In this document: positions 7,863-49,300 of the stretch, piece by piece | Layout: each line of letters begins with the position of its first letter | How positions within the stretch are numbered: the first letter of the stretch is position 1 | IMG/VR virus record: IMGVR_UViG_3300014204_000141 | Span: 1 to 64,000 of that record | Length of the DNA stretch: 64,000 nt | Direction: 5' to 3' (one strand) | Source: a virus | Lineage: Duplodnaviria > Caudoviricetes | The notes under the pieces: generated by a model | Seen by the model: the letters and a program-made list of their open reading frames with translations, nothing else | The model's database searches: none | What the model was told of the DNA's origin: nothing | Program-made: the position numbers and the translations under genes

Positions 7863-8601
7863 TGTGTTGGATCTAATAAAACAAGCCCAAGCCGGGAATA
7901 TAAACGCTCGCAATAAAATTGTTATTGCTAATATTGGTCTTGTTTATATGGTTTTGAAGCATATTAATATACCCGGAAATGTATTTGAAGATGCTGTGGC
8001 AGAGGGATCTTTGGGTTTGTTTAAGGCTATAGAGAAGTTCAACCCAAAGCAAGGGTGCAAATTTTCTACATATGCGACGTATTGGGTCCGTAGTTATATT
8101 CAAAATTATTTTTATAAAAATAGAAGTTTGTTAAGTGGATTAGAATTTGACGTGTTATCTGCTTATGACAAACAATATAAGAATTTAGTTGGTGATAATT
8201 ATGATAAATTTTTGAAAAATCATAAAAAATTTAGTAGTATTGATAATGCTTTGTATTCGGTAGATAGCCTTGAAAATATTACTGTAGCAACGCATATTTT
8301 TAAAACTCGTAATAGTGTAAAATTTGAAGATGTGATTTCTGATGGTGCGGATTTATACCAAGAATTTGAGTTGCATGATGATGTATCAACACTTATTAGA
8401 GCAATTAATAATCTTCCTTTTAAATTAAAAGTTTTTATAGAAACCAGATATGGTCTTAAAGATGGTAAGTATAAAACACTTCGTGAAACAAAAACCATTC
8501 TAAATAAATACGCAAAAAAATATTTTAAAGTATCATATCAATACTGGCATGTACTGGAACGCCAAATTTTAAAAACGCTTCGCACCCACTTTCCTATTTA
8601 A
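7855..8601 (+). CDS. sigma70-family RNA polymerase sigma factor (phage)
   Basis: Region 2 ANIGLV...EG.LGL.KAIEKFNP..G.KFSTYATYWVR; degenerate region 4 RYGL.DG..KTLRE. Confidence 0.9.
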   Translation: MNDVLDLIKQAQAGNINARNKIVIANIGLVYMVLKHINIPGNVFEDAVAEGSLGLFKAIEKFNPKQGCKFSTYATYWVRSYIQNYFYKNRSLLSGLEFDVLSAYDKQYKNLVGDNYDKFLKNHKKFSSIDNALYSVDSLENITVATHIFKTRNSVKFEDVISDGADLYQEFELHDDVSTLIRAINNLPFKLKVFIETRYGLKDGKYKTLRETKTILNKYAKKYFKVSYQYWHVLERQILKTLRTHFPI

Positions 8602-28584: not shown

Positions 28585-28586
28585 AA

Positions 28587-29231: not shown

Positions 29232-29249
29232 TAAAAAACATTTTTAGTG

Positions 29250-29265
29250 TATATAATATCTTATG
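29250..29265 (+). promoter_or_regulatory. TATATAATATCTT-ATG promoter abutting a start codon
   Basis: Shared ATATAATATnTTATGG motif. Confidence 0.55.
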
Positions 29266-30018
29266 GGGAATGAAAACGAAGAACTTATTAAACGTCTTCA
29301 AGCCACAACGTATTGGGAAGATTATTATACCGGTGTTGATGCTGTAATAATGATCAATGGTGAGTGGGTTGCCGATACTGTAACAATTCAGTATTCTCTT
29401 GTCAGTAATAAATCCCCATTATATGGATATATGTCCACTACATTCGATGCCGTAGCTAAAGGCACAGAAATTGTTCAGGGCCAACTTACAATAGCGTTTA
29501 CTGAACCCGGATATTTATATAAACTTTTAAGTGATGATACTGACAAATCCTGGATAACGGGGTTTTTGGATTCTAGTAAAGACGGTGTAACTATTGATAC
29601 TTCACCTCTTCACTACGCCTATGATTCTAAAGGTATTGACCCTGAAGGATTTAAGATTGTTGTTAATTATGGCGATCCATCCCGAAGTGTCAGAGGTGGT
29701 ACAGCCGAGGTATTAAATGGTGTACATTTAACGTCTGTAAGTAAGGTTTTGGAACCAACTGGTGAACCCATAGTTGAAGTTTATAGTTTTTTTGCTAATA
29801 ATTGTAATAAAGTTAAACCGTTAGTTATGTCTGAACAGGTTAAAGGCGGGTTACAATTTATGGAAGCTCAAGTCAGTGCTGATGCCAATGCTGAAGTTGG
29901 TGATGCGATTGCTGAGGCGGCAGATATAAAGGACAAAGCTGATGCTGAAGCCGCTCGACAGAGTATAATACAAGCAACAGATAAATTGGATGAAATGTTA
30001 GGACCAATATATAAATAG
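29263..30018 (+). CDS. tail tube paralogue 3 / tube initiator
   Basis: Y.G.D....ING, IQYS....K.PLYGY, G..IVQGQL; divergent tube family. Confidence 0.65.
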   Translation: MGNENEELIKRLQATTYWEDYYTGVDAVIMINGEWVADTVTIQYSLVSNKSPLYGYMSTTFDAVAKGTEIVQGQLTIAFTEPGYLYKLLSDDTDKSWITGFLDSSKDGVTIDTSPLHYAYDSKGIDPEGFKIVVNYGDPSRSVRGGTAEVLNGVHLTSVSKVLEPTGEPIVEVYSFFANNCNKVKPLVMSEQVKGGLQFMEAQVSADANAEVGDAIAEAADIKDKADAEAARQSIIQATDKLDEMLGPIYK

Positions 30019-34000: not shown

Positions 34001-37000
34001 CAGCAGTGGATACTATATCATCTGCTTTTGCTATGCGGTTTCAGCGGTTGAGCAGTTTTGTTTTGGGGTTGGATATAACTAAATATAAAACAGGTTTAAA
34101 TTATTTAGTTGGCGGTGTGTTAAAGAATAGAATGATGCCTGCGGTTGTGGGGTTGTGGGGGTTGGATAAAATTAACACCTTTGGTTTTGATATGAATCCT
34201 CTTCTGTCCGGCTCTAGTCTGGACGAAGGTGTTGATGTATTTGCCGCAGAAAAAACAATACAAGCCCGTGTGGGGTTAGCTAAAGCATATGACGTCTTGG
34301 GAATAACAGAATCAGCTAAATACACAGAAGGTTTATTTCCAGGTCTTATTGACAGTCCGTTAATGCGGGGTGTGCGCGGTGCATTGCTGCCATTGATTGG
34401 TGGTGCGAAAATTGGTATGTCCGCGGGTGGTCCTGCTGGTGGTTTGTTGGGTATTAGCGTAGGGTTGACATTAGCAGGCCTTCAAGGGTTTGGCACGTTC
34501 GATTTAACCAAATCTGCGGCTGAATTGAAGGATATTTATAGTGGAAGAGAAGAGGTGCCGGTTAAAAGCGGAAGATGGTGGCCTATAAGCAGCACGCCAT
34601 TTTCTGGCACGCGGATAAAATATTTCCGCCCACATGGCTTTGCTCGTTTAAAAAGTAAATACAGAGAAACACCAGAAACATACGGTTCGCCTTTAGAACA
34701 GTTTTTATTTGCGCCCATACCAGTTTTTGGTTTTAATCCCTTGGAGATGATATTTGATAGCGGTCATTATGAGAAGAGGAAGATGTACAGTTTTCCATAT
34801 CCAGCGCGATCCATTCCGTTTGAAGACGTACCTATAGCTGGTACTATTCTGTCAGCGGCAGTGAGTCCAATATGGGGTGGTGGCAAAGGATATAGAAATG
34901 TTGATGTTGAAAATGCTATTCAAGGCTCTTCCGGTGGTAGTGGATTTGGCATATCTCAAGGTGGTGGGGGTTGGGCTGAAACAGCGTCATCTTCATCATT
35001 AAAATTTCAACCCGTTTCTGCTAATTCTTATGGTCAGATGTTGGATCAAAGCATTTATGGTGTTACGGAGATGATAGGTCTTCATGGTTTTATTGGTCAG
35101 ACACTATCAGAAAAGTTGTTAGGATTTCAACAACCGTTTGATAGTCAATTAGTCATGGCCAATTCTGGTGAAATGTTTTCGGCGCGACGACAGTATTGGG
35201 ATTTGAATTTAGGAGATCCCACGGGATTGGGTGAAATACCAAGACGATTCCTACCCAGACAAAGAAATTTAAATCTTTATAATCCCCTGACTAATGCCGT
35301 ACCGAATTGGATGCCCGATGAGTGGAAAGTGGGTAGTAGCCTTGCAAAAATACCAGAAGCGGAATTTTTATTATCGGGTGAAGGATACCAGAGCGCTCAC
35401 GATGTTTCTATAGACTTTCCCTATTCTGCGGAATTATTGGGTTTGCCACCCTCAGAAGTCGCAAGGGTTATGACGGGTTTGTATCAAAGAAACGGTTCTA
35501 AATTTTCTAAAAATAGTCTGTCTCGCGACAACCTTTCAATTAAAATAATGGCTAATATGTATGATCCCAGAAACAACATAAGTGGGTCGTCATCGTCAGT
35601 AATAAGTTCAGGTCCAGGCAAAATGACTGAAATTATAAAAAATATCGAAGATATGGGCCAATACAGTGGTGTGACTAACACCGACATATCCGAGACCAAT
35701 TTTTATTTAAGACAGACGGGTTCTCCGGCTGGGCTACTGACTTATATGTATCAGGGCAAACCCATATCTTCAACACCTGTAAAATATTCACGAGAACGAT
35801 ATGAGTATGATATTGAAGCTGTTCAAAAAGGACGTTCTATAGCAAAAGAAATGCTTGATCGAGGCGTTGGTTTTAGTGGTGAGGGTTATTCTTATATTGA
35901 TAGGTTAGATATTTTGGCCAATACGTCACCATACAGTGAAGAATTTCATCAAGTTGAGGGTATAGTTAAAAAACAAATAGAACATGGAGCTGATCTTCAA
36001 GACCGATTAGATAAGATTCAGAGAAAACGTGCGGCGATTATGAGATCTGGGGATACGTACTCATATCGTTTTAACATTGGTAAGATTTTAACACCAGATA
36101 CAACATATAATAACACTAGCATGAACACTAATATTAAAGCTGCGGCTGATTACACGTTTACAGAAAGAATGATGGCGAGCGGCTGGGAAATGTTCGCTCA
36201 TAGTAGTAATCCTATATCCGCAAAATTCATGAACATTAGATCTCCATTAGAAGCATATCAAAGAGATATGATTTATGGTAGGCAGATGAAGATGTGGAAT
36301 CACCCTCTTTCGCATTGGGCTGATGCATATAGTCGGGGTTTTTTAAGTAAAACCAATCCTATTTCTGGAGCCGTAGCAGGTGCTACAGCAGGTACCATAG
36401 CTGGTGGTGCGGGGTTGGGTACATTTCTTGGCGGTGTTGGGGGTGGAATTTACGGAACAGTTCATGGTATATACAGATCAGTAACAAACACAACATATAT
36501 CCCCGAATCGATAGAGAAAATTAGAAATACCAATGAGTTTTTTGATGTTTTAAAATATACTAAAAATAAGATGTTATATAATGAGACTCAGAACCCCGAA
36601 TATGAATTAGAAGCACAAAATACTATGGTGGGACTTACACCTGATGATCTCACAGCAAAAGGATTTAGTAATTTTTTTAGAGCTTCTGGTAGTCAGGAAC
36701 GGCCTTATTTAATGCAGTTTTTACAAGAAAAAGATGAGACTGAACGCGCGCGGATTCTCAATTATGTTCCTAAAAATGTAGGTGCTATATTAAGAGCAAA
36801 GTGGGGAAAGATGGATGGTGTGCAAGTTTATGTTAATAGAAGCGCCGATGTTACTCTACCTGACCAAAACTGGCAGGGTTATAACGCAGACGTTAATCTT
36901 GAAGATGTTAAACTGAAAGTTGTTGAACGCCAGGGTGCGGACGCGCATGATTATGGTTTGGGTTTTAAAGATCAGCAATTTAGAGTTCAAAATCAACCTT

Positions 37001-37188
37001 GGTTAAAAAATATAGCCATATCTATGGGGTCTAATGCTGAGACTAATCGGCAGACTGTATTACAAAGTGATAATACCGATTTAAGACGACAAATAGAGGA
37101 ATTAGTTAGGTCGATGCGAGCTGATATAAAGTCAGTTTCTGTTACACCGGCGATGCGCAATACAGTAACTATTATTAATACGGATTGA
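31027..37188 (+). CDS. giant tape-measure-like/ejected virion protein
   Basis: 2053 aa directly after the chaperones; Gly-rich hydrophobic segments; degenerate PD-(D/E)xK-like region. Confidence 0.6.
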   Translation: MGIAEQYTDPYERQKADQYGGKPQSGVGSVVGPLLKNVAVFWIAQQALKILLPAAGKVLGGIGREVGAFKLGGTPISERFVPAANYIKQLRTTFSPENMTRTFGKGEGDQLFKWKTDVEKSHTDWVKNWDRRRDELKSFRGSPDYFFKSLEQNSKAYLSYSRDRISSFWTSGHLSQRLAGKFLTAGPKYMENMAEFYFIDQSLQLFHKQPRGEKQPSLLNIPKQFQNYFKYSMEMLPIQLLIDSVGPVWGLAREGLVSAGSSIFNKLKFSKYAPKIIKPVDEFVGKLIATAEGLHEGYGSYKKLIKKRSDYVDKDFIRKNIGEARSAFLKKYNDKIRDFKDRRENPFYEITNLIKTVYGSEHIQGLPVRSKQKLRDKKSDVSKEYIRSKVDIIKEGMLWPYKDTHKSYWLRMFSAKKGIADNADLLNKLQSEIGGLNLGDKFLSEKRQILSEVKKLAKSGMPVLGKNFTNIGGDIVSTHNINPFTIGKRIWNYAEEHGPTIFGVNPLTALHVDTWLDPKATSFEYLKGDKDIIGINALNTERNKAFTSGLPTTGNKGYGYNVSESGELIFGESGGLKLGGQVFVGIQPKKGQMSYLRVYKNPYFNNTGTASGPRSLLSDVFKNMMGLLSTRYSNNSENFIRRVESLSTQDAIESLSKRPGVAKVINFLHADNLVKKIGSDWTPKNIINFWDLRGAIGNVHRVGEIAQGVFQKFHQPSTDIQVSPYFFRDMMGRGRRGGLSFSEQKSLLTTADTILATSNREFSEILKDNYTLSRNLYGKELPGTLEEMNVELKRLHDFSATAAKGNLIAQEYKRTGLEHIYQGIHTTHDLSLFSSPAGRANEKLSGREQLMELLLTEKFLQNGEKDFVKTFNDSVKTQVRTGVLSEDEAVHAQLWGVEKIFRNKTEGYGAIGIESQTKLEPITTDAIRFLKDYIEPISKAGIKNINPWTPVFDPGNISGTSLIDTSPSHLSLTPYVNSALTFNFKGKNVNTSAVDTISSAFAMRFQRLSSFVLGLDITKYKTGLNYLVGGVLKNRMMPAVVGLWGLDKINTFGFDMNPLLSGSSLDEGVDVFAAEKTIQARVGLAKAYDVLGITESAKYTEGLFPGLIDSPLMRGVRGALLPLIGGAKIGMSAGGPAGGLLGISVGLTLAGLQGFGTFDLTKSAAELKDIYSGREEVPVKSGRWWPISSTPFSGTRIKYFRPHGFARLKSKYRETPETYGSPLEQFLFAPIPVFGFNPLEMIFDSGHYEKRKMYSFPYPARSIPFEDVPIAGTILSAAVSPIWGGGKGYRNVDVENAIQGSSGGSGFGISQGGGGWAETASSSSLKFQPVSANSYGQMLDQSIYGVTEMIGLHGFIGQTLSEKLLGFQQPFDSQLVMANSGEMFSARRQYWDLNLGDPTGLGEIPRRFLPRQRNLNLYNPLTNAVPNWMPDEWKVGSSLAKIPEAEFLLSGEGYQSAHDVSIDFPYSAELLGLPPSEVARVMTGLYQRNGSKFSKNSLSRDNLSIKIMANMYDPRNNISGSSSSVISSGPGKMTEIIKNIEDMGQYSGVTNTDISETNFYLRQTGSPAGLLTYMYQGKPISSTPVKYSRERYEYDIEAVQKGRSIAKEMLDRGVGFSGEGYSYIDRLDILANTSPYSEEFHQVEGIVKKQIEHGADLQDRLDKIQRKRAAIMRSGDTYSYRFNIGKILTPDTTYNNTSMNTNIKAAADYTFTERMMASGWEMFAHSSNPISAKFMNIRSPLEAYQRDMIYGRQMKMWNHPLSHWADAYSRGFLSKTNPISGAVAGATAGTIAGGAGLGTFLGGVGGGIYGTVHGIYRSVTNTTYIPESIEKIRNTNEFFDVLKYTKNKMLYNETQNPEYELEAQNTMVGLTPDDLTAKGFSNFFRASGSQERPYLMQFLQEKDETERARILNYVPKNVGAILRAKWGKMDGVQVYVNRSADVTLPDQNWQGYNADVNLEDVKLKVVERQGADAHDYGLGFKDQQFRVQNQPWLKNIAISMGSNAETNRQTVLQSDNTDLRRQIEELVRSMRADIKSVSVTPAMRNTVTIINTD

Positions 37189-37197
37189 GGTGATATT

Positions 37198-40100
37198 GTG
37201 TTTGGACATAAAGATCGTAGGGAAGAAAAATCAGACGTTGATTTTGCTGTGACATGGATGAGTGTATTGCCGGCGTACTATGTTGCGTCACATTGGTTGA
37301 GAAAACGTAGTCCTACAAAGCAAACACCTACACTAAAAACGTTTTTTCCCGAGATTTACCAAAGAGTTGGCGAACGCATAAAAGGCGCATTTGTTCCTAA
37401 ACGACTTCAGACTGCCATGACTGTTGATGATTGTTTTGATGCGCTGCAACGTTTTCAGGATGAAGCTAAAGATAAACACCTTATGGCTTTGGCGTCTGAT
37501 CAAGAAAAAGCTATTAAAACAATTGAAAAATTTATTCAAGTCAGAGAAAAAATAGGTGCGATAATTACACCACAAGAAATCAGAGACAGGTTAGCAAAAT
37601 TACAGGAAACCAATCCCTTCGCATATGATAAGATTTGTGAAATTGCTTCATATGATACACTCACACACGGGAAAGTTGAAATACGGGATGTTGTTAGTAA
37701 AATGGAAGGCCAAGGGTTAGATGTAATTACTAACAGTCTTTCTTCTATGACTTCGGATTTGAAGTTTCTTTTAGATTCTCTGCCTATGCGGTCTAAGTTG
37801 TATAATGATTATGTTAAGAAAAAAATTGATGATCCGTTACTGACATTTGATCAGTTTTTAAAAACAAATCCTGATGTTGAAGAAGTTAAAATCTTGAATT
37901 CGGAATTAGACAAAATAAAAAAAGATAAAGTGTTTTTTTCTAAACAACCAATTACACCACCGAATTTTTTGCAGACGCCAATAAAAGACGCTAATGTTAA
38001 GAATAGAGTTCAACTTCGAGATTTTCTTGATGGTATGTTTAAAAATGTTAATACTTTTGTCGATGGTATGTATGGCAAAACAAGCAACTTTGCTTCTAAA
38101 ATGGGGTTTAAGACGCATATTAAAACGCCTATTAATACAGTCGTCCAAAAAATTAATTCTTTTCGCGCCGATACCGGTGGACGTGTTAAAGGAAAATGGC
38201 ATGTTAAAGGCGATATAATGCTTAAACAAGGAAGTATTAAAACTTTAAGATATACTGACGGATTTTCTATAAACTTTTCTATAGAATTTGCGGATAAATC
38301 CGGCGTATCTCGCAATATTGACATTGCCATTCCTTTAGACATAGACATGTATGGAAGATATGGCGATAAAATGCATCCTGATATTCCCGGTGTTTTGGCG
38401 GATAAATGCATTATGATTGAAGAGAATTTAGAACGAATAGTTAATGGTCATATATCACCATATGCGGCAGGATTAAAACAGATAACTGACACCACAATTA
38501 TTGGTTCGATGATAAATAAAGATTTTCAAAAATTAATGGACAGATCCGTAGGTCAATTTATCGCGGTTTCGACACCAGAACGCCAAATTCGTTTCGCTGC
38601 ACTTAAAGCCAATACTATGTATAAGACATTTGGCGAGCGTTTGAATCCAGGTATAGAAGCTATAGCCAAAATCAACAATTCTACTGTTTTAAAATTTGTT
38701 AAGTCTTCACATAGTGGTATAGGTACAAGTATTGTCACTGTTGTGTCGGAGAAAGGTAAATGGCGAGTTGATAAAGTAGAAAAATACCAAGGCGGCGGCG
38801 CAAATATAGACCGGAATATAACTAAAGACACAATTTTTATTACCTCACGCGGTCAACGCGATATGTTTAAAATTAAAGAAATTTATGGTAAACAAATTGC
38901 CGCCGAAGGTAAGAATGTTATACACTTATCAGACATATCTAAAGCCGATCCCACATCATCATTACTGAATATTGACAACACCATATCTTCGCCTTTGGAT
39001 GCATATGTAGGTAAGACATCAAGACTAACTAAGTACATCAAAACACATTATAAAAAACAATCACAAATCATAGAAGATTTTATTCAAACTGCAAATATGG
39101 ATATAACAGATTTTAAAATAACTACAATTCCTAAAGATGTGATGTCATTTATTCTCTACACACAAGCTGCAGCGCAAGGTGTTTTTTCCGGGGCCAAAAC
39201 TAAAACTGAAATAGTAGATATATTGGATGGTATAGTTATTAATAATAGATTTAGTGGTGAATCCGTTCATCTCAGTATTGGTGCAGTTACACCATCGGCT
39301 ATGGGAAAGGGTGGACGAACATTTGAAGCAGTGCCAAATATTAATGTTTTATTACCAAGATCGGGTCAGAAAGCTCATGCGTTGAAAATTAATAACTTTA
39401 ATCCTTTATTTGGTCATCACGATTTTAATGTTTCTAATATAAAAAAAGGATTTAAACTTTCAACGCCATATTTAAGAGAATTAAAAGATATTAATGATAT
39501 GTCAGTCTCGATAAATGTTGTGGCTGGTATTGGTGACACCGAGGCAAGTGCTATTATTAATGATAAAATTCGCAATCTTCAAACACAAACACCAGTTTTG
39601 GGAACGCTTACAGTAGATAGGTTTTCACTTAATGTTGCTTCCGATATTAATGGTAATACTGAACTATTAAAAAATAGAATATTTAAACATGGTGATGTTA
39701 TAGGTTATGATGCTGTGAATCGCCCGATAAAAAACGAATACGGTTTGATTCAAATAACTGATGCTAGGTCTGGCCCCGGTGGTATGGAATTATCGTTTCA
39801 TGTCCTATCTTCACCATCTTATGGTCTCATAGTGGACACGGGTCAGAAATTATCATTTAAAAGAGGTGAAATAGGGAACGAGTTTGTTGATATGGTGGCG
39901 GGAAAGGGTATACCAGCCAATAACCCCATCGCGCAGTCTCTGTCATTTCTTAACACGTTGAATTTTCGTGGTGGCGGTGGTTATTTAAAAACCGCTATCG
40001 ACAAAAAAGCAAATTTGCGGCGCTATATTCAATATGAACAAGCCGGCGGCGAGTTTGTTTTTAAAGTAAATGACAGGGAATTGCTTAAGACCGAATTAGG

Positions 40101-43100
40101 CGGAATTTCTCAAAATATGAATTTTGATCGTAAGTCATTTTTTCAGGAAATAAGAAATGTATTTACTGAAAATGGTTTGACCATGGGCCGAGCGATGCGT
40201 ATGGATCAAGGGTATATTAATAATAATGGTGATATTTTGAGTTTGAGAAGCATCAAGAATGACATCAGAGAACGAATAAAAATGTTGGTTGATATTTACA
40301 GTAAAGACAAAGCCACACCAAGAAAAGAAGGTGTTAATTATTTGGCGCGTTGGATTGGCGATGTCACGACTCTACCTGATAAATTATCAACTTTAATTCA
40401 AAAATTAAATGGTATTGAAAACGGCAGTTACTCCGAACAGAGAAAGGTAATTGATGAAGTTTTACAATTTTTTGATCCCATTCCATCGTTTTTAGAAAAA
40501 ACAAACTATGGATGGGGTATAGCTACAAAACAAAAGATGTTAATTCAACCCGCGACTATGGAAGATACTGTAATAAACAATTGGGGTTATAAACGATTTA
40601 GTTTCAACACATTTGAAACACTGCGTTTATATGAAGGTGGTAGTGCTGTAGATGAGTACATGCACAATAAACTCTACAAAAACAATGAACAATTATTTGG
40701 CCGTATTATCAGGCAAAATAAAATATTCAGTCTTAGTACCGAAATAATGGAAGTTGAAGCTGCCAAAAACAGAAATATTTTGAATTTGCGGAAAGTCATG
40801 CAATCTCAGGACTTAGTTAGATCAAAAATAGACAGGTTGTTGGATGCTATGATCAATCCCAAAATCCAAGAAAAATATGATGAGTTGATTAAACGTGGTG
40901 CCGTACTTGTAGAAAAACGTGGTCTTGCGCACGTTGCTATCAAACCCCGAGATATAGATAAATACAAAGAAGAGGGTTGGACTGTCAAAGAACTGACTAT
41001 GACAAATATGCCCGATACAGAAAAATTGAAATTAGCGAGAATTATTCCAAATGAGTATGCTGAATTTTTTATAAAAAATCCAATATCGGGATGGATTGGG
41101 GTTGATAAGAATGTAGATGTTGCCGACATTTCTGGTAAAATGCAGAAACTGCGTACTCTTTTTATGGAAGGCGGTGATATTATTCCCGTTGAGGGCACTA
41201 AAGGACGTTTGGCATTTATTGGAGACGGTTCTACAGCAATATTGAATTTGATGAATAAGATTCGGGCAAGTATTGAACCAACGACAAGAGAATGGGTAAT
41301 CGCGCATGAAAGAATGATGAAATCTGCGGGTGATATTGCGCCAGCATCGCGATACATCACCGCACCCGGTATGAGTTTAACTCTTAGACCTGGGGCTGCA
41401 TATTTAGGCGGAAAGACATTTAACCCATCAACTACTACTATGGCTTTGGAAATGTTGGTAAGTAATGAAGGTTTTGCTTCTGCTAAAAACTTAATTAGAG
41501 ATGAATTTTGGAGTATGAGTCCAGAACAACAAAAAACATTTTTGGATAGTAAATACAAGTATGCTATGGATCATTTCAATTTTACCAAAACCGAACAAAA
41601 TTTATTACCAAATCAACAAAAATTGACAATGCACCCTCTTATAGAATCTATAGATCGATTAAAACAAAATGAATTTATAAATGACATGCGCATTTTAAAA
41701 CGCGAACTTAATTCTGGTCACATTGATAGTGCTTTTGACATGTATTTATCTAATGTTGAAAAAGGATTTTTGTCAGTGTCAGCTTTGGGAAGTAAATCTC
41801 CTCACTCTGAAAAAACAGGCGCTGTTTTTGGTGAGTTGTTTTTTAGAGAAGGTGTATCTAAAGGAACAGTTGCTATATCTCCATATCTTAGATATGCGTT
41901 TAAAAAAGACTTCGATTCTGATGAACTGCAAATAATTTTAGGGCAAGAAATGGGTTTAAAAGCAACGAAAATAAACGAAATAGGTATGTATCATAAGACA
42001 CCCTATCTCTTGCTTGCTAATGAATTAGAAACATTTGCTAATCCTGAAGCTAAAGCAGCGTTGAAAAAAGGTGAAGTTTTTGTTTATAATACAAAAAAAC
42101 GGACTTTTGAGTTTATGAAGGCCTCAACCTACACCGGAAGCCTTAGTGAATATGCCGTAGAAATGCCCGATGCTATGGAAATGGCTAGACGTGCTTTTGG
42201 TATTAAAGAAGGCGCACCCAAAGCACATAAAGTATCACGAACTGTTTATGCTGAGATGGGATTAGAATATGAAAGACTTCGCACCAAACACCCTAAACTC
42301 GATGATGCTTTAAGAAGTAGTGAAGATGAGTTAACAAAACAAATTTTATTGGTGACGGAATTACCACTAAAAGCAAAAAATGCTAAACAGTATTTTGATA
42401 TGAGTGCTTTAGAACAAATTATTGAAAATATAACCGATGAAAAAACATATAGAAAATTAGAAAATAATATAGGTAAAGGTCAATTTCCGGGTCTAGAGTC
42501 TTGGATAGAACAAAATATAAAAGTGGAAGATCATATGTTGTTAGGTGCATGGGCTAAAGCTGGTCGTATAATACCTAATAATGGCATGATTTCTCAACTT
42601 GAATTATATAGAGGCGCTAAATTTGGTGTAAAAGAAGATAAAAATATTCGTTATTTAACTGATTATCTTAAAAAAGAAAAATTTGCGAATTTATCTAAAA
42701 ATGTATTGCAAGGCAATATACCGATTCAGGACCTACCTTCTGAGTTAGCGCGAATGTTTCAGGAAGGCGTAGAGAGTATGAAACCGCCTCGAAATAGTAT
42801 GGGTTTAGCATTTAGAGAGACAATGGGTAAGAACATGGCAGAAGATGCCAGCAAATACGCCAGGGGTGGGTTGAAGGTTGTAGGGGGGTTGTTGTTAGCA
42901 TCAATGTTTTTTCCCAATCAGAGCAGGTTTTTGGGTCACATGCCGGGCCGAGGCGGAGAATATTACGATTGGAGTTTTACTAAAGATGAATCAAAATGGC
43001 AACAGCAAATGGAGTCACCGCTGAATGCCGATAATGGATTTTCGCAACCCGATACCCATATCACACTTTTTGACCCCATGGAAAGTGAAAGGCAGACGCG

Positions 43101-43188
43101 TGTATACGCGCGAAAAACAAAATTTTTAAGACCTGTGTATAAAAGTCAGGATCGTATAGGTCATAAGTCTTCAACGTTTAACTTTTAA
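37198..43188 (+). CDS. putative single-chain two-barrel (DPBB) virion RNA polymerase
   Basis: Ordered beta-like motifs (GDTEASAII, GDVIG, GQK, VDMV), then beta'-like motifs (RYITAPGMSL, GSKSPH, ISP...AFKKDFDSDEL). Confidence 0.68.
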   Translation: MFGHKDRREEKSDVDFAVTWMSVLPAYYVASHWLRKRSPTKQTPTLKTFFPEIYQRVGERIKGAFVPKRLQTAMTVDDCFDALQRFQDEAKDKHLMALASDQEKAIKTIEKFIQVREKIGAIITPQEIRDRLAKLQETNPFAYDKICEIASYDTLTHGKVEIRDVVSKMEGQGLDVITNSLSSMTSDLKFLLDSLPMRSKLYNDYVKKKIDDPLLTFDQFLKTNPDVEEVKILNSELDKIKKDKVFFSKQPITPPNFLQTPIKDANVKNRVQLRDFLDGMFKNVNTFVDGMYGKTSNFASKMGFKTHIKTPINTVVQKINSFRADTGGRVKGKWHVKGDIMLKQGSIKTLRYTDGFSINFSIEFADKSGVSRNIDIAIPLDIDMYGRYGDKMHPDIPGVLADKCIMIEENLERIVNGHISPYAAGLKQITDTTIIGSMINKDFQKLMDRSVGQFIAVSTPERQIRFAALKANTMYKTFGERLNPGIEAIAKINNSTVLKFVKSSHSGIGTSIVTVVSEKGKWRVDKVEKYQGGGANIDRNITKDTIFITSRGQRDMFKIKEIYGKQIAAEGKNVIHLSDISKADPTSSLLNIDNTISSPLDAYVGKTSRLTKYIKTHYKKQSQIIEDFIQTANMDITDFKITTIPKDVMSFILYTQAAAQGVFSGAKTKTEIVDILDGIVINNRFSGESVHLSIGAVTPSAMGKGGRTFEAVPNINVLLPRSGQKAHALKINNFNPLFGHHDFNVSNIKKGFKLSTPYLRELKDINDMSVSINVVAGIGDTEASAIINDKIRNLQTQTPVLGTLTVDRFSLNVASDINGNTELLKNRIFKHGDVIGYDAVNRPIKNEYGLIQITDARSGPGGMELSFHVLSSPSYGLIVDTGQKLSFKRGEIGNEFVDMVAGKGIPANNPIAQSLSFLNTLNFRGGGGYLKTAIDKKANLRRYIQYEQAGGEFVFKVNDRELLKTELGGISQNMNFDRKSFFQEIRNVFTENGLTMGRAMRMDQGYINNNGDILSLRSIKNDIRERIKMLVDIYSKDKATPRKEGVNYLARWIGDVTTLPDKLSTLIQKLNGIENGSYSEQRKVIDEVLQFFDPIPSFLEKTNYGWGIATKQKMLIQPATMEDTVINNWGYKRFSFNTFETLRLYEGGSAVDEYMHNKLYKNNEQLFGRIIRQNKIFSLSTEIMEVEAAKNRNILNLRKVMQSQDLVRSKIDRLLDAMINPKIQEKYDELIKRGAVLVEKRGLAHVAIKPRDIDKYKEEGWTVKELTMTNMPDTEKLKLARIIPNEYAEFFIKNPISGWIGVDKNVDVADISGKMQKLRTLFMEGGDIIPVEGTKGRLAFIGDGSTAILNLMNKIRASIEPTTREWVIAHERMMKSAGDIAPASRYITAPGMSLTLRPGAAYLGGKTFNPSTTTMALEMLVSNEGFASAKNLIRDEFWSMSPEQQKTFLDSKYKYAMDHFNFTKTEQNLLPNQQKLTMHPLIESIDRLKQNEFINDMRILKRELNSGHIDSAFDMYLSNVEKGFLSVSALGSKSPHSEKTGAVFGELFFREGVSKGTVAISPYLRYAFKKDFDSDELQIILGQEMGLKATKINEIGMYHKTPYLLLANELETFANPEAKAALKKGEVFVYNTKKRTFEFMKASTYTGSLSEYAVEMPDAMEMARRAFGIKEGAPKAHKVSRTVYAEMGLEYERLRTKHPKLDDALRSSEDELTKQILLVTELPLKAKNAKQYFDMSALEQIIENITDEKTYRKLENNIGKGQFPGLESWIEQNIKVEDHMLLGAWAKAGRIIPNNGMISQLELYRGAKFGVKEDKNIRYLTDYLKKEKFANLSKNVLQGNIPIQDLPSELARMFQEGVESMKPPRNSMGLAFRETMGKNMAEDASKYARGGLKVVGGLLLASMFFPNQSRFLGHMPGRGGEYYDWSFTKDESKWQQQMESPLNADNGFSQPDTHITLFDPMESERQTRVYARKTKFLRPVYKSQDRIGHKSSTFNF

Positions 43189-43212: not shown

Positions 43213-43395
43213 ATGGGATTTAATATAGTTATAAGAGTGTCATATAAAGGTGATATTAATAATTTGTCAAAAGCTATTAAACAAATGATTGAATCCAATA
43301 CTGGTGCGGGCGCACAGTTTTTGGTTTATGATCAGAGAACTAAAATGATTAAACAAAAAAATAATACGGAAGAAATATATAGGAAGTTAAAATAA
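43213..43395 (+). CDS. small hypothetical protein
   Basis: 60 aa; TATAAT directly upstream; TAATG-coupled to the next gene. Confidence 0.6.
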   Translation: MGFNIVIRVSYKGDINNLSKAIKQMIESNTGAGAQFLVYDQRTKMIKQKNNTEEIYRKLK

Positions 43396-46300
43396 TGGTT
43401 GCTAAGACAACAGTAGAAAACCCAGGTTTTGCTTTGGCGTCTGCTAATACACTAAATACATACGCTGGTTTCATTAGTACCATGGAAGATGTTTATGTTG
43501 CTAATGGTATGGTTTCGGCTGTTAAAGGCACAACATTTTCTGTAAAACTCAGTCATCGCAATGAACCTATTAAAATTACCCTTGATGGGGTTAGTTCTGA
43601 GATTGATTTGTCATCTAAATTTGCACAATACATAGGTCAAACTGTAACTGTTTTAGTTAAAAAAGATGTGTATAAAACAGGTGTTTTATTTTTACCCGAG
43701 AGAGAGTGTATTAACGATGATGCAATAACAAAAAATGGGGCTGGACTTATACCATCACAGAATTCACTGTTTAAAAAGGCATATTTATCAGCAAAACGGA
43801 CTGAGGTAAGCACTGGAATTTCCAAATATGAGAAAGATGGATGGGTTGATGAAAGTGGTAAGTCCAAACCCGGAGCCTGCCAAATAGGGTTTTTGTGGTT
43901 ATACGTCCCTCCGCAAGACATTAAGTGTATTCACGCTAATGTCAATCAAACCATATCCACTATTAGAACACCCGGTAATCCCAAACTAAAAACCGGTCAA
44001 GAAGAGATGCGTATTGAAATGTCTCTTATTTTTCCCTCTCTTGATGATATAAATAGAAGACTCAGACCCCTAATAGCCCAATTTATACGTTCACCGTTTC
44101 TTCCCATTGAGAATGAACATATAAGAGGATTTGCGTATCCCGATGTACAGTGGTCAATGAAGGGCTCAGGAAACACCAATTTTAATCAAAAAGAAAGAAG
44201 TGTAGATATTAACAATCCCGACAGTTTTATCAATGAGACCACAGAATATCAAAAGAAAATAAATAAAGCTGTTACCACTCAATCTAAAAATACTGAAACT
44301 AATATTGATGAAAATAGCAAAGACATGGAATTGTATAGGGAAGCCGTTAAAACTCTTACCGAACTCAAAACTGAACTCAATGGCTATTTTAAATCAAAAA
44401 AACTCACAAATTCTATTAGTTTGTATGATAGGTTACTTATCATACCACCAAAATTAGATGTGTGTGAAATGAGTAACAGTATTTCCGAGTATAAACTTGT
44501 AACAACAAATTTTAAAACATTTCTTAAAAATTATGGAAGTAAAACAGCAAAAGATGTAAAAAACCAAATTTTGGTATTATTAAATTGTATTTCGTCTTCA
44601 CTTAGTCACTATAATGATATTTTAAAAGGTTTGAACATAAAATCAAAAAACTTCATAAAAAATATACAAACAAAAGAACAAATTAAAAACAAATATACTA
44701 AACATGCTGGTGATATGTACGCGGATAATACACTTGTAGTAGCTTTGCGTGACCTGACGTTATCGACAATGCCAGGTTATCCTGAAGCTCTACAGTGCCA
44801 TTTAGTTCTGACAATTTTTAATTATGATCCATATTCAAGGGATTTTGCATTTTTAGGGGATTTTGATAGTGTTGTTCGTCAAATTGAATGTATATCTCAG
44901 ACTCGAAATATGAGGTATCCAGATTTTGAAGATAATCTCATAAAAAATGATAAACCTGTTTTAGCGCCACTAGATCAACAGGAAATGCAAATAACTCATA
45001 ATATAAGTGAATGCATGCCTTTTATTGAATATGTTGCGCCATTGCTGACTGGTAAAGGTACAGACATTACATGTAACCCTAAATTTAATTTAAGAGATAA
45101 ACCTTCTGCAACTATAAGTGAACGTACAATTCGTTTTGCCGCACCATCAAATTATCTCCATTCTATTTCTCAAGCTGAAGCATTTCAGCGATTTGATTTG
45201 CGGTATGAAATGACAGAAAATAACATAGAATATCAGGCTTTACTGGATTCAATAGTTAGTAGAACCAGTAGTGAACTCTATGCTGAGTTATTGTCACGGC
45301 TTCAACAATCATATAGTCTTACACAAGTCGGTATGGATTCATTGTTTGAATTTGTCAAGATATTTTATAGTTATTGTTCATTTCAATGGTTGAGTACACA
45401 AAAAGAAGTAATGCTAGAGGGTTTGTCAAGTAGTGATGTTAAGGTTGATTTTATTATAAATCCTTTTTATAAGGGTATGCCAGAGACCTTTACAACTGTT
45501 GGTAAACTCTATGCGTGGTTACAAACACATGGTTACGCCGATGTTTTAGAAAGTGCAAAAACAGCTATTGAGTTACAGACACGATCTAATAGGGGTTTGC
45601 AGAACATATATAATTTTTCTATTAGAAATTCTCGCGATTTAGTTATTAACGGTATCACGGCTTCATATAGTACAAAACTTGCTACGGTTCCGGTTGTTGG
45701 ATACAGAATACCAACTCTACAGTATATGGGTCGAAATGATTGGTATATTAATATTAACCTTCAGACATCAAATTTTTTCTTTATTCGCGCTTTTAGAAGT
45801 TTAATGGAAATTGCGGCCAGGAGCAGAATATTAAGAAACAAAACACAGAAAATGTATTTTATCGCCGAATCCAACGCCGCAGAATTTAGTCCCGAACTTT
45901 CTGAGAATACTGTAGATCCCTCTAATGGACTTACAGCGTTTTTAGGTATAAGAAATGTTCTTTTTGATAATTGCACATACGAAACAATTAAAGATAAACC
46001 GGGTTGGTGGAATGTAAATATTACTATGGTTCAGGCAGATCTACCACTTCTAAGTTATGAAAGTCTTTTGCCTATGAATCAGTACGATGCCGGTGTCTTA
46101 CAAGATATAGATTTGAATTTGAAAAAAATGACGCAGAAGTTTAGACGCAATCAAGAAGACCCGGCAACGTTTCGATATAAATATTTTTATCCCGCAATAA
46201 CGTCTTTTGTGAAAGGGTATTTAAAATATGTTTTGGGTGATATCGATAGTGCCGAATCCTTGATATCGGATTTAGGCGATGGAAATCTTCTTGATAAAGT

Positions 46301-49300
46301 ATTGGCGATGAATAATATGTCTCAGAAACGGTTTACATCATTTTTATATGGTGTGTTAAAAACAAAAGGTGTGATTGATAAGAATGTTGTATATAATGAA
46401 GGAAAAGATTCTATTACCACACCAGTTGGAACATTTACAAGGAATAAATTAGGTATATTTGGTAGATCTTCAACAAGACAAGATTTATCTTTTGCGCAAG
46501 ATGTTATTAGGAGTATCCAACCAGTAACAGGTTTTGCGCCAGTTCCATCAAATATTCAAAAAAGTGTAGATATTATATCAAGAATGTCTGGAGATATAAG
46601 ATTACTTCACACAGGATTAGGTGTAAATGTTGAAAATGCATTTGCTATGATGTTTTCTAAATGTTTGCGCGACTTATCTGTTAAATACGTATCAATAGCG
46701 CCTACGGAGTGTTTAAAATTTTTAAAATCGTGTGGTAGTTCGTGGCGCGAAGAAAATTTGCGGCCCCAACACATGTTGCCGAGTTCAGTCAATCAAAATC
46801 AAGAAGCTATGCAATTATATAGCAATCACCCTGATTTATCTCTACCATATTCAGCTAATAATTTTTTGACTGTACCAGCAGATTTCTTTTTCCAAAAAAA
46901 TATAATTCAATACGATTCCGAACAAATAAATGAGAAATTTAAATCTATAGAAACAATGATGAATAATATTTGGAAATCTGAATTAATCGAAGGCGCGTGC
47001 ATGGTTGCTAATCCCGAATATGCTAAACTTATTTCCGATTATCCTCTGACTGCAACCGGTAGTGATTATGCGAATTGGATTAAATATAAATGGATGCAAT
47101 TTCCAGATCCTCGTAGTTCAACTGGCGCAAAAACATCTGGGGTAGTTTTAAAAGATGCTGCGGATAGGATTAAATTATTTAAACATGTTAAAGGTAATGT
47201 TTATATTAAAAGTGAACCCAATGTTGATTTTTTAAAAGAAAAAGTTCCGGCTGTATATAATCTATGGTATAAAAATATTCAGCATCTATCATTTGAAAGA
47301 AAAATGGAAATGTGTTCAAATTTAAGTGAATTTGCCAAACGTCAAGCCGTGATAATGCAGGCGATGATTGTTGCTGGTGGTTATTTAAATTTGGTAGAGA
47401 GTAGAAAAAATCATATGGAAACCAATAGCACTAAAGCTATGGGTTTATCATTAGATAAATTAACACAAATTACTACGGAAAAATTTAATCAGATTTGGGC
47501 TGCTTCATATGAAACCGATAATTCACTTTTGGGTTCGGTAACGCCATGGTCATTGGCAGTGATTGATGACGTTAAACACCGTATTAAGGAATCCTATACT
47601 AATTATTGTGCGCGAGACAATACCTTGACCATGGAACGTGCTTTTCCCACATTTAAACTCTTTTTTATTGAAGAAGATGCACACGAATGGGGCGCATTTG
47701 ATGACTACTATATGTATAATGCCGTATCCAGTGTTGATGTAATAGATTCATCTAAATCAGCTGGTGCTGTTGCTAGTATTGTCTTAAGTAACATGTCAGG
47801 CAACTTATCTGATCCCTATTCAGTCTATGCAAGAGAAACACAATTTGCTAAGGATAATGCTGGTACAATTCAATCCGTAGAACAAACACAACAGGAACAA
47901 ATACTAGCCACACTTTTTTTACGTGAAGGTGTGACGATAATGATTAAAGCTGGTTATAGTTCTAATGTCGATGATCTTGATACTATATTTATGGGTAAAG
48001 TTGTATCTGTATCACCTGGTGAACAGGTTAACATAGTAGCGCATGGTTTTGGTGCGGAATTACTTGAGGTTGTTAACAAAGGTATAGAACAAAAATTAGG
48101 TTGTTCCAGTCCAGCTCGTAGTCAAGGTGATGTTGTATTATGGGCTGGCGGAACCCTGACAGGATTAGAACATTTTGGGTTACCTAATGTGTTTGAGAAA
48201 TTAGGTTTACGCGGTTCTCCACATGGTGATATTTTACTGTCTCCGCAAAAATGGAGAAATGCGGATATTTATAAGGATATATTTCATCCTGTTTTTGATT
48301 TGTATTTTAAATTTGGTGTATTTGATCCTAGATATGAGAATATTTATCTGCCTTATACGAAAATGTCTTTAGGGTTTTGGGGTCGTTTTGTTAATGCTCT
48401 TGTACCGTATGAAAAAAATTTAACTAAAGTTGCGACGCGTGTAGCCATGGCTATTGCTATTGTTGCTTTTTGTATATTAGTACCCGGAGTTGGTGTTGGT
48501 GTTATAACTAGCATATACGGATTAAGTTTTGCTGCAGGTTTTACGACAACCACTCTCGCATTAACTAGTTTAAATGCATGGGTCTATGGTGTTGCCATTT
48601 TAGGTAGTTATTTGGGTATAGGTGCAATAGACGCTTTAGCAGGTGGTAATTATGGTGAATTAGGTGCTATAACATATGATTGGCTTATAGAAAAAAATAA
48701 AACAATGTTTGATTTACTTCAGGAAATATGTTTGTATTGGGAAGATTATATAGTTACTGTATTACCATATAACCAAAATCTACCCGGACAAATGCGACAA
48801 ACAATTTATGTTGGTCCTAGGAATGGTTTGTATAAATACACAGATGTTTTTGATTCGAGTACAGATTTTTCAGATTTTATAAAACGTCTGCAACACGGAA
48901 AAAGCGCAGATCCCAGACTCGATGATAATGAAACATTACAAGAAGCATATGATAAAAAATCTGAATTAGAAAATGATGTGGTTGCGGCTAGAACTGATTT
49001 ATTAGAAGTAGAAAAGGATACTTCAATATCAAATTATGATGAACAAGTATCAAAAGCAAGAAAAGATGTTGTAGATAAAGAACGACTATATCAACTAAAA
49101 GAACAAAAACTCGCGGGTTATGATTATAAAACCGCTGATGAACAACAATATAATATTAATAATGCTTTGGTGATGTTGGCGATAAATAATCCCGGTGATA
49201 TGTATACGACATCATCATATACAGATGCAAAAGGGAAACCTCAAACTTCTGTAACAAAACAAGTTGGATATATGCCTGTCGTAAATTATCATTCGCTTAC

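What the first reader, a model, noticed from the sequence alone, without database searches (positions are those of the whole stretch)
37198..43188. Cryptic single-chain two-barrel RNA polymerase inside a myovirus tail module
Seen in sequence: the 1996-aa protein carries motifs that match both catalytic double-psi barrels of cellular RNAP, in the correct order. Beta-like: VVAGIGDTEASAIINDKI (E782; cf. GYNFEDSILVSERV), FKHGDVIG (cf. GDILVG), DTGQK (K884; cf. GDK...HG[NQ]KG) and FVDMV (cf. PVDIV). Beta'-like: RYITAPGMSLTLRP (cf. KRVDYSGRSVITVGP), ALGSKSPH (K1533; cf. LLNRAP) and AISPYLRYAFKKDFDSDEL (D1571-D1575 at nt 41908-41922; cf. LHPLVCAAYNADFDGDQM). The K-to-D spacing is 38 aa, against 35 for E. 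coli R425-D460. Established: single-chain two-barrel virion RNAPs occur in crAss-like phages (phi14:2 gp66), and one is fused to the tape measure protein in Thermus phage P23-45. Inference: this is an ejected virion RNAP, encoded here as a separate gene between the tape-measure-like gene and the hub of a contractile-tailed phage. All three Mg-binding Asp are present, but the R->K, ED->EA and G->S changes suggest a divergent or altered enzyme.
Basis: partly seen in the sequence, partly recalled or inferred. Interest (0 to 1): 0.92.

Follow-up and report, generated by a model that had tools for sequence, protein, structure and literature searches.

The report
Probable RNA polymerase in tail genes
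A 1996-residue orphan gene among the contractile-tail genes of an uncultured large phage sits in a slot where related phages encode a one-chain relative of the cell's RNA polymerase, and it keeps that enzyme's catalytic signature, so it is probably a polymerase carried in the virus particle, though its own fold could not be confirmed.

Summary
The ORF, every quoted motif and every coordinate are real. P0001 (37198-43188) has no detectable sequence relative: Pfam, PHROGs, PDB, 5.8 billion clustered proteins and HMMER over 1.84 billion representatives all gave nothing. Single-sequence AlphaFold failed (pLDDT 33), so its fold is untested.

The support comes from gene position. It is the middle of three giant genes, lying between a conserved P0002-type gene and a P0003-type gene. 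The same slot in 12 of the nearest IMG/VR relatives, and in cultured Bacillus phages Edson and WH1, holds a protein with one [RK]xP...DxDxD signature 370-640 residues from the C-terminus; P0001's lies at 426. An 18-member slot family folds confidently (pLDDT 76), and its Foldseek hits are RNA polymerase beta/Rpb2 and beta' chains (Z 13).

All slot proteins share a C-terminal membrane-helix module. In two loci (L011 and L012) that module alone fills the slot, so the RNAP body is cargo, not a tape measure.

Best reading (about 0.65): a highly diverged single-chain two-barrel virion RNAP. Rivals are an exapted dead enzyme or a structural protein with chance motifs.

I found no paper describing this for contractile-tailed phages. 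This scan has noted the same kind of gene in at least 47 other genomes.

The parts
37198..43188 (+). P0001, 1996-aa orphan 'middle giant' gene; candidate single-chain two-barrel RNA polymerase
   Evidence: ORF and translation. GAGGTGA SD at 37187-37193 before GTG 37198. No Pfam, PHROG, PDB or database relative.
39682..39897 (+). Residues 829-900 (FKHGDVIGYD...DTGQKLSFKRG...FVDMV): candidate beta-type barrel with candidate basic residues K884/K888
   Evidence: By eye it resembles the G-x-V-L-G-x-D...G-x-P-V...K-x-F-G-x-x-K block of the folded slot family. An HMM of that block does not detect it, so it is unverified.
41347..41391 (+). Residues 1384-1398, SRYITAPGMSLTLRP: candidate counterpart of beta' ...YSGRSVI...
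   Evidence: Family consensus GSRFLxAVS; Edson MSGRFHIEG; L003 PIYTAPG. Resemblance only; the block HMM gives no hit.
41794..41922 (+). K1533-S-P ... D1571-F-D-S-D1575: the [RK]xPx{20,100}DxDxD signature of the beta'-type catalytic barrel
   Evidence: Positions verified. It matches the filter used by Chaban et al. 2024 (PMC10770324, Suppl. Data 4). The same signature sits at the equivalent distance from the C-terminus in all 12 nearest slot proteins. A segment HMM built without P0001 ranks P0001 1551-1581 first among non-members, but at E 0.3-1.
42823..42990 (+). Residues 1876-1931: C-terminal module with a membrane-like helix (GGLKVVGGLLLASMFF) and a PN...MPGxGGE tail
   Evidence: This is the only part with significant similarity to a relative: L003 slot protein, 41% identity, E 3e-5. 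The same architecture ends all slot proteins. It stands alone as a ~200-aa ORF in L011; L012 has the same layout.
31027..37188 (+). P0002, 2053 aa, upstream giant gene; homologue of 0305phi8-36 gp145; probable true tape measure / tube-lumen protein
   Evidence: BLASTP to gp145 at 4e-20, colinear. 35 database homologues, some with inteins. 170 related IMG/VR stretches.
43395..50246 (+). P0003, 2283 aa, downstream giant gene; gp147-type hub/lysin-like protein
   Evidence: phrog_20474, 4.6e-56. Homologues follow the slot gene in L003, L004, L009, L013-L015, L017, L018, L022 and L023.
7855..8601 (+). Phage sigma factor (context: host RNAP is probably redirected for later genes)
   Evidence: phrog_351, 3.5e-29.

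Best explanation
P0001 is the window phage's copy of a fast-evolving 'tail-slot' protein. A large N-terminal body is a very diverged single-chain two-barrel (beta-like then beta'-like) RNA polymerase. It is fused to a short conserved C-terminal module with a membrane-like helix. Shown: the slot is conserved, slot proteins of relatives fold as RNAP with invariant K / RxP / DxDxD residues, P0001 keeps KSP-35-DFDSD at the same place, and P0001 shares the C-terminal module. Inferred: the protein is built into the tail interior through the C-terminal module, is ejected through the tube on sheath contraction together with the P0002-type tape-measure-like protein, and transcribes the first phage genes independently of the host enzyme. 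The phage sigma factor then directs host RNAP to later genes.
For: 1. Slot orthology. A P0002 homologue, then the slot gene, then a P0003 homologue are found in L003, L004, L009, L013-L015, L017, L018, L022 and L023. The same order holds in 0305phi8-36, Moorella MTATph1, Edson and WH1.
2. Every one of the 12 nearest slot proteins has a single [RK]xP...DxDxD 398-637 residues from its C-terminus; P0001's is at 426. Nine further family members carry RHP...DxDxD, including DFDGD.
3. In the 18-sequence family alignment K230, R598, S606, D651, D653, D655, K696, K768 and H769 are invariant. The AF2 model has pLDDT 75.9 and pTM 0.72.
4. Foldseek against PDB gives only RNAP second-largest and largest subunits among the 50 hits listed: vaccinia Rpo132 at 3.5e-5, bacterial beta, and beta' 6vjs_D. 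VIA-align gives Z 13.3 over 258 residues, rmsd 4.8, against Rpb2 706-1058.
5. P0001's C-terminal module matches L003 at E 3e-5.
6. In L011 the slot holds only the ~200-aa C-terminal module (L012 has the same ORF layout), so the body is cargo rather than a length ruler.
7. Edson and WH1 slot proteins read NRYPT-(38)-ADHDGD, the same 38-residue spacing as P0001.
8. gp146 of 0305phi8-36 was found in virions by mass spectrometry.
9. Retention of the full signature in a sequence that has otherwise diverged beyond detection argues for selection on catalysis (inference).
10. Lead only: for residues 1340-1700 the nearest named ESM-Atlas clusters are PolD DP2 catalytic domain and phage RdRP PF05183, both two-barrel polymerases.
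Against: No sequence or profile method links P0001's body to the RNAP-fold family or to any known RNAP. Its fold is unknown, since the model has pLDDT 33. The signature occurs by chance in 12.6% of shuffles. R is replaced by K and the Gly of DFDGD by Ser. The beta-like barrel is only a visual match. Slot proteins are not all RNAP-like: 0305phi8-36 gp146 and Moorella CDS0027 have no DxDxD, and a 48-member cluster has FDLDD instead. The slot can therefore hold other or degenerate bodies. No expression, virion or activity data exist for this phage.
Confidence: 0.65

Rival explanations
1. P0001 descends from a tail-slot RNAP but is now a catalytically dead structural or ejection protein, for example a tube plug, channel former or DNA pilot. 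Its DxDxD would be a relic or would be kept for metal or nucleic-acid binding only.
For: The slot tolerates bodies without DxDxD: gp146 and Moorella CDS0027, and the FDLDD cluster. It also tolerates no body at all (L011). P0001 has R to K and G to S changes, and no recognisable conserved basic pair in the beta-like region. Divergence is extreme.
Against: K at this position is accepted in the published RNAP filter.
Confidence: 0.17
2. P0001 is the tape measure or another purely structural inner-tail protein unrelated to RNAP, and the motifs are chance matches. This is the classical annotation of the slot (0305phi8-36 orf146 = tape measure protein).
For: Hardies et al. assigned orf146 as the tape measure from its correlation with tail length, and noted that only the last ~60 residues align between relatives (PMC2147016). 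P0001 and L003 show the same pattern. The signature arises by chance in 12.6% of shuffles. No profile hit.
Against: The slot is reduced to a ~200-aa C-terminal module in L011 (L012 has the same layout), which cannot measure a tail. The conserved P0002/gp145 family, with Gly-rich hydrophobic segments, directly follows the chaperone-position genes and is the better tape-measure candidate. Slot proteins of relatives are RNAP by fold. The chance of the signature falling in the right C-terminal window is 1.8%.
Confidence: 0.13
3. It is a non-virion polymerase, or a polymerase of another specificity (primase-like, RNA-dependent or DNA polymerase, as in PolD), that merely happens to be encoded in the late operon.
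For: The two-barrel superfamily includes RdRPs and PolD, and the nearest named Atlas clusters are PolD DP2 and RdRP (lead only). There are no virion data for this phage.
Against: The gene is co-oriented and tightly packed with late structural genes, and its SD overlaps the P0002 stop. It carries the C-terminal module common to slot proteins. gp146 is a virion protein by mass spectrometry. The family model matches DNA-dependent RNAP beta/beta' best.
Confidence: 0.05

Closest known systems
Thermus phage P23-45 gp96, the tape-measure-fused virion two-barrel RNAP (Chaban et al. 2024, PMC10770324)
   Same: A single-chain two-barrel RNAP encoded in the tail module and found through a lone DxDxD in a giant tail protein. 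It has almost no sequence similarity to other RNAPs, membrane-associated segments in the same polypeptide, and a proposed role in pre-early transcription coupled to DNA entry.
   Different: gp96 has the RNAP at the N-terminus of the tape measure itself, in a non-contractile siphovirus. Here the gene is separate from the tape-measure-like gene, lies in a contractile-tailed phage, and has the polymerase core in the C-terminal two thirds followed by a short anchor module. No sequence similarity was found. gp96 did not appear among the 50 Foldseek PDB hits listed for the family model.
crAss-like phage phi14:2 gp66 virion RNAP (Drobysheva et al. 2021; recalled, and cited in PMC10770324)
   Same: A giant (~2000 aa) single-chain two-barrel virion RNAP that is one of several consecutive giant genes next to tail genes and is ejected into the host.
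   Different: gp66 belongs to a podovirus and to the RdRP/YonO-like clade. There is no PHROG or PDB sequence hit. The slot-family model matches the multisubunit beta/Rpb2 and beta' clade first. A crAss-type 'RdRP' appears only at rank 15 in BFVD, E 2e-3.
Bacillus phage 0305phi8-36 gp146 ('hypothetical tape measure protein') and its lineage (Edson gp0920, WH1 gp095)
   Same: Same slot in the same gene order, and the same lineage by sheath, gp145/P0002 and gp147/P0003 homology. The behaviour is also the same: only the C-terminus is conserved. Edson and WH1 carry NRYPT...ADHDGD.
   Different: gp146 itself has no DxDxD, and 0305phi8-36 encodes a separate YonO-type RNAP, orf99. P0001 has no detectable similarity to gp146.
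Cellular and poxviral multisubunit RNAP beta/Rpb2 and beta'/Rpb1
   Same: These are the best structural matches of the slot-family model: Foldseek probability ~1.0, and Z 13 over ~260 residues of the hybrid-binding/DPBB region. The order of the beta-like and beta'-like halves is the same.
   Different: Here there is one chain. Identity is about 10% for the family, and P0001 is not alignable at all. No assembly subunits are present, and the context is the phage tail.

Membership tests
Two-barrel (double-psi beta-barrel) RNA polymerase superfamily | Metal-binding DxDxD in a beta'-type barrel | tested here: inconclusive
   DFDSD 1571-1575 is present, the only DxDxD in the protein. The barrel fold is not verified because the AF2 single-sequence model has pLDDT 32.9.
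Two-barrel (double-psi beta-barrel) RNA polymerase superfamily | [RK]xP 20-100 residues upstream of DxDxD (filter of Chaban et al. 2024) | tested here: met
   K1533-S-P1535, then 35 residues, then D1571. Chance rate is 12.6% anywhere in the protein and 1.8% in the expected window.
Two-barrel (double-psi beta-barrel) RNA polymerase superfamily | A second, beta-type barrel upstream in the chain that supplies conserved basic residues | tested here: inconclusive
   The candidate is residues 829-900 with K884/K888, by eye only. The block HMM gives no hit. In the syntenic family this feature is met: K230 is invariant and Z is 13 to Rpb2.
Two-barrel (double-psi beta-barrel) RNA polymerase superfamily | Sequence or profile homology to a recognised RNAP family | tested here: not met
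   Pfam, PHROGs, PDB phmmer and PF05183 on the genome gave nothing. This is also true of accepted members such as P23-45 gp96, so it is not disqualifying.
Two-barrel (double-psi beta-barrel) RNA polymerase superfamily | Template-dependent NTP polymerisation | not testable with these tools
   Needs biochemistry.
Tail-slot single-chain RNAP of 0305phi8-36-like contractile-tailed phages (undescribed family defined here by alignment A3) | Gene lies between a P0002/gp145-type and a P0003/gp147-type giant gene | tested here: met
Tail-slot single-chain RNAP of 0305phi8-36-like contractile-tailed phages (undescribed family defined here by alignment A3) | C-terminal membrane-helix module | tested here: met
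   P0001 1876-1931 against L003 at E 3e-5. The common architecture is seen in the alignment of C-termini.
Tail-slot single-chain RNAP of 0305phi8-36-like contractile-tailed phages (undescribed family defined here by alignment A3) | Signature about 370-640 residues from the C-terminus | tested here: met
   426 in P0001, against 398-637 in the 12 nearest slot proteins and 368-430 in further members.
Tail-slot single-chain RNAP of 0305phi8-36-like contractile-tailed phages (undescribed family defined here by alignment A3) | Profile-detectable homology of the body to A3 | tested here: not met
   hhalign probability 0.2. hmmsearch --max gives no hit. L023 is detected; L003, L004 and L006 are not.
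Tape measure protein | Indispensable length ruler present in every relative | tested here: not met
   The slot holds only a ~200-aa module in L011; L012 has the same ORF layout. Slot length varies from 1413 to 2994 aa among close relatives.
Tape measure protein | Long, mostly alpha-helical polypeptide in the tube lumen | tested here: inconclusive
   Only a low-confidence model is available. The slot-family model is a mixed alpha/beta RNAP core.
crAss-like virion RNAP (gp66 family) | Homology to gp66 / PHROG or PDB 6VR4 sequence, and a podovirus cargo-gene context | tested here: not met
   No hit. The phage has a sheath and a baseplate.

The most novel reading that the evidence does not exclude
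A widespread lineage of large contractile-tailed phages (0305phi8-36-like, including cultured Bacillus phages Edson and WH1) carries a single-chain two-barrel RNA polymerase inside the tail. The polymerase is fused as cargo to a small conserved anchor module, in the gene slot long annotated as the tape measure. P0001 is an active, extremely diverged member with K for R and DFDSD. Sheath contraction would then inject a transcription enzyme ahead of the DNA. This would be a third independent solution after N4/crAss head cargo and the P23-45 tape-measure fusion, and the first for myoviruses with a single-chain enzyme.
Probability: 0.5. Interest if true: 0.85.

Novelty: new variant of a known kind. 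Interest (0 to 1): 0.72.

Why it matters
Virion-delivered RNA polymerases let a phage start transcription independently of the host enzyme. For two-barrel enzymes the known cases are crAss-like podoviruses, phiKZ-type jumbo phages (multisubunit) and one Thermus siphovirus. A single-chain two-barrel enzyme in the tail-gene slot of a large group of contractile-tailed phages would have four consequences.

1. It would re-annotate a gene long called 'tape measure' in the 0305phi8-36 lineage.
2. It would show that RNAP cargo fused to a small tail-anchor module is a recurrent design.
3. It would add a very deep, sequence-invisible branch to the RNAP superfamily, one that resembles the cellular beta/beta' clade structurally.
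4. It would give cultured test systems (Edson, WH1).

For this window specifically, it shows how far such an enzyme can drift: no detectable homologue remains, yet the catalytic signature is kept.

Tried and rejected
Searches and tests that gave nothing for P0001:
- Direct homology: PHROGs and Pfam, PDB phmmer, tblastn on 50,697 phage records, word-indexed search of 5.8 billion proteins (self only), HMMER over 1.84 billion representatives with residues 650-1700 (0 hits), and a metagenome contig scan.
- ESM Atlas on the whole protein: no usable hit.
- phmmer against all large ORFs of 80 related loci: none.
- hhalign of the slot family against P0001: probability 0.2.
- Block HMMs, a full-family HMM and a signature-segment HMM: P0001 is not significant. 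It is top-ranked among non-members by the last of these, but at E 0.3-1.
- AF2 single-sequence fold of residues 690-1760: pLDDT 32.9, unusable, so no fold search was run on it.

Other dead ends:
- A profile of the slot family against PDB sequences gave no RNAP hit. Only the structure comparison revealed the fold.
- A viral-contig scan for relatives of the L003 slot protein found only itself.
- hhalign of the 48-member FDLDD cluster against the RNAP-fold family gave no match. Whether that cluster is RNAP-like stays open here.

My initial guess that the three giant genes marked a crAss-like podovirus was rejected once the sheath and baseplate hits came in. PF05183 (the YonO/RdRP type, as in 0305phi8-36 orf99) is absent from the 93.5-kb record, but the record is only about 46% complete. 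Complex prediction was not used, because a single-sequence run would not have been informative.


Full report
**Observation**

The window is the first 64 kb of a 93.5-kb IMG/VR virus record that CheckV estimates at about 46% complete. ORF 37198-43188 on the plus strand starts with GTG and encodes 1996 residues. A GAGGTGA Shine-Dalgarno sits 4 nt upstream and overlaps the stop codon of the preceding gene. DFDSD is at 1571-1575 (nt 41908-41922) and K1533 lies 38 residues before D1571.

**Context**

The gene is the middle of three consecutive giant genes: P0002 (31027-37188, 2053 aa), P0001, and P0003 (43395-50246, 2283 aa).

Upstream lie a portal, a major capsid protein, a tail sheath (phrog_16991), three tube paralogues and two small ORFs in the chaperone position. 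Downstream lies a baseplate wedge gene (phrog_6). A phage sigma factor is encoded at 7855-8601. This is a contractile-tailed phage, not a crAss-like podovirus as I first suspected.

The sheath and P0002 place it in the lineage of Bacillus phage 0305phi8-36, together with Moorella phage MTATph1 and Bacillus phages Edson, WH1 and KLEB27-3. In 0305phi8-36 the same order is gp139 sheath, tube, chaperonins, gp145, gp146 and gp147.
- P0002 is homologous to gp145 (4e-20, colinear).
- P0003 belongs to the gp147 family (phrog_20474).
- P0001 occupies the slot of gp146. Hardies et al. assigned gp146 as the tape measure from tail length alone, and noted that only its last ~60 residues align between relatives (PMC2147016).

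**P0001 is an orphan**

The following gave nothing for P0001:
- Pfam, PHROGs and PDB sequences.
- The GenBank phage collection.
- A word-indexed search of 5.8 billion proteins.
- HMMER of residues 650-1700 against 1.84 billion representatives.
- A metagenome contig scan.

Conservation of DxDxD 'among homologues' therefore cannot be tested in the usual way.

**Relatives by synteny**

I used an alignment of P0002 homologues to fetch 80 IMG/VR loci. Nearly all show the same layout. The third giant ORF is a P0003 homologue in L003, L004, L009, L013-L015, L017, L018, L022 and L023, so the slot is orthologous by position.

In the 12 loci closest to the window, the slot protein (1413-2994 aa) has exactly one [RK]xP...DxDxD, lying 398-637 residues from the C-terminus. 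P0001's lies at 426. The local sequences read like the beta' catalytic barrel, for example RHPxIGxxSxQPV...GMAADKDAD, RYPTTGSPS...NIDTDDD and RQPIEG...GGDFDAD.

The same regular expression was used as the RNAP filter by Chaban et al. (PMC10770324, Suppl. Data 4). It occurs:
- in 5 of 281 other large ORFs of these loci;
- in 12.6% of shuffles of P0001;
- in 1.8% of shuffles when restricted to the C-terminal window.

**The slot family is an RNAP by fold**

Seven slot proteins are mutually homologous, and ten more were found with their profile. In the 18-sequence alignment A3, K230, R598, S606, D651, D653, D655, K696, K768 and H769 are invariant.

AlphaFold2 on this alignment (L009 residues 380-1330) gave pLDDT 75.9 and pTM 0.72.

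| Search | Result |
|---|---|
| Foldseek vs PDB | The 50 hits listed are all RNAP second-largest or largest subunits: vaccinia Rpo132 (3.5e-5), bacterial beta, E. coli and Thermus beta', Pol III |
| VIA-align | Model residues 13-351 align to Rpb2 706-1058, Z 13.3, 258 residues, rmsd 4.8 |
| Foldseek vs BFVD | Best matches: an unnamed protein (2e-12), uncharacterised giant proteins of Acinetobacter phage ME3 and Microcystis phages Ma-LMM01/MaMV-DC, a 'minor tail protein' of an uncultured siphovirus, then poxvirus and giant-virus RNAP subunits |

Sequence profiles of the same family found no RNAP in PDB. The family is invisible to sequence methods, as was reported for P23-45 gp96.

**Linking P0001 to that family**

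The direct links are as follows.
1. The slot.
2. The signature at the equivalent position.
3. A C-terminal module (residues 1876-1931, with a membrane-like helix) that matches L003 at E 3e-5. Its architecture recurs at the end of every slot protein examined. Edson's C-terminus matches gp146's at E 5e-4.
4. By-eye matches of FKHGDVIGYDAVNRPI...QKLSFKRG to the family's beta-type block, and of SRYITAPG to GSRFLxAVS and Edson MSGRFHI.
5. A language-model lead. For residues 1340-1700 the nearest named Atlas clusters are PolD DP2 catalytic domain and phage RdRP, both two-barrel polymerases. Their scores (0.77 and 0.76) are at a level the tool calls a lead only.

Against a link:
- hhalign and several HMMs built without P0001 do not detect it.
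- A signature-segment HMM ranks P0001 1551-1581 first among 376 non-member sequences, but at E 0.3-1.

**The slot protein is not the tape measure**

In L011 the space between the P0002 homologue and the P0003 homologue holds only a ~200-aa ORF, and L012 has the same ORF layout. That ORF is the C-terminal module by itself: helix, SPxxP, and the ...DxRRSL... tail. The conserved structural element of the slot is therefore the small C-terminal module, and the large body is a passenger.

This fits a cargo design, with an RNAP fused to a tail-interior anchor. It leaves the conserved, Gly-rich hydrophobic P0002/gp145 family as the better tape-measure candidate.

The body also varies:
- gp146 of 0305phi8-36 and Moorella CDS0027 lack DxDxD. 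0305phi8-36 has a separate YonO-type RNAP, orf99.
- A 48-member cluster of more distant loci has a conserved GGFDLDDK followed by RQPTGxxE instead. I could not resolve what that is.

**Cultured members**

Bacillus phages Edson (gp0920) and vB_BceM_WH1 (gp095), both 2515 aa and 94% identical to each other, sit in the slot. They read ...DMSGRFHIEG...NRYPTINKQ...(38)...KADHDGDNG. WH1 gp095 is annotated as a virion structural protein, and gp146 was detected in 0305phi8-36 virions by mass spectrometry. These are the only hints of virion location; ejection is inferred.

**Mechanism proposed**

*Shown.* The slot is conserved. The slot family has an RNAP fold with intact catalytic residues. P0001 keeps the signature and the anchor module.

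*Inferred.* The protein is incorporated in the tail interior through the C-terminal module. It leaves through the tube on contraction with the P0002-type protein and transcribes the first genes of the entering DNA. Host RNAP with the phage sigma factor then takes over. This parallels the scheme proposed for P23-45 gp96.

**Literature and novelty**

Full-text searches found only the P23-45 paper for tail-associated two-barrel RNAPs. Iyer et al. 2021 list only the YonO-type enzyme for 0305phi8-36. The Ma-LMM01 transcriptome paper found only host sigma-70-type recognition sequences and no phage-specific motifs. Within the held library I found no description of this family.

It is a new variant of a known kind, namely a virion or tail-associated single-chain two-barrel RNAP. 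This scan's own notes list 55 similar findings in at least 47 genomes, several with the same conclusion. Those are unchecked AI notes. My result was reached independently and agrees with them.

**Verdict**

| Reading | Probability |
|---|---|
| Diverged (probably active) tail-slot RNAP | about 0.65 |
| RNAP-derived but dead | about 0.17 |
| Unrelated structural protein with chance motifs | about 0.13 |
| Non-virion polymerase, or one of another specificity | about 0.05 |

The family-level discovery is solid and interesting. The window's own protein is its least verifiable member.

Noticed in passing
L011:12397-13003 (L012 has the same ORF layout): Between the P0002 homologue and the P0003 homologue there is only a ~200-aa ORF. 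It corresponds to the C-terminal membrane-helix module of the slot proteins, with no polymerase body.
   Followed up: partly
L024-L082 slot ORFs (about 1600 aa; e.g. L019:3036-7307, L032:12631-17430): A 48-member cluster of slot proteins lacks DxDxD but has a conserved LGGFDLDDKG followed about 30 residues later by RQPTGxxE. The order is the reverse of the beta' RxP...DxDxD. It may be a variant catalytic loop or different cargo. hhalign to the RNAP-fold family found nothing.
   Followed up: partly
L102:16362-23909 (Bacillus phage Edson gp0920) and L103:14362-21909 (vB_BceM_WH1 gp095): Cultured Bacillus jumbo phages carry a 2515-aa slot protein with MSGRFHI, NRYPT and ADHDGD motifs. It is annotated as hypothetical in Edson and as a virion structural protein in WH1.
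   Followed up: partly
L002:32154-39767 (0305phi8-36 gp146) and L101:16205-20134 (Moorella MTATph1 CDS0027): These slot proteins have no DxDxD at all. 0305phi8-36 instead has a separate YonO/RdRP-type RNAP (orf99). In Moorella a transposase gene follows the slot gene.
   Followed up: no
window 7855-8601: Phage-encoded RNA polymerase sigma factor (phrog_351, 3.5e-29), encoded upstream of the packaging and structural genes.
   Followed up: no
window 43213-43395: A 60-codon ORF in the only sizeable gap of the giant-gene block. TATATAATAT lies a few nt before its ATG and there is no Shine-Dalgarno. Another reader flagged this as a possible leaderless promoter class.
   Followed up: no
P0004, P0005 and P0037 (database homologues of P0002): Some P0002-family proteins carry Hint/intein and LAGLIDADG domains (PF13403, PF14528, PF14890), so inteins have inserted into this conserved giant tail protein.
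   Followed up: no
window 27925-30018: Three consecutive tube-like paralogues hit phrog_9206, which is labelled 'major head protein'. The label appears to derive from 0305phi8-36 gp140/gp141, whose product field reads 'major head protein' although the notes call them tail tube and tail tube paralog.
   Followed up: no
window 57517-59559: A 680-aa collagen-like Gly-X-Y tail fibre protein (many PHROG tail-fibre hits) directly follows a 661-aa ORF (55560-57545) that hits a DNA methyltransferase PHROG.
   Followed up: no
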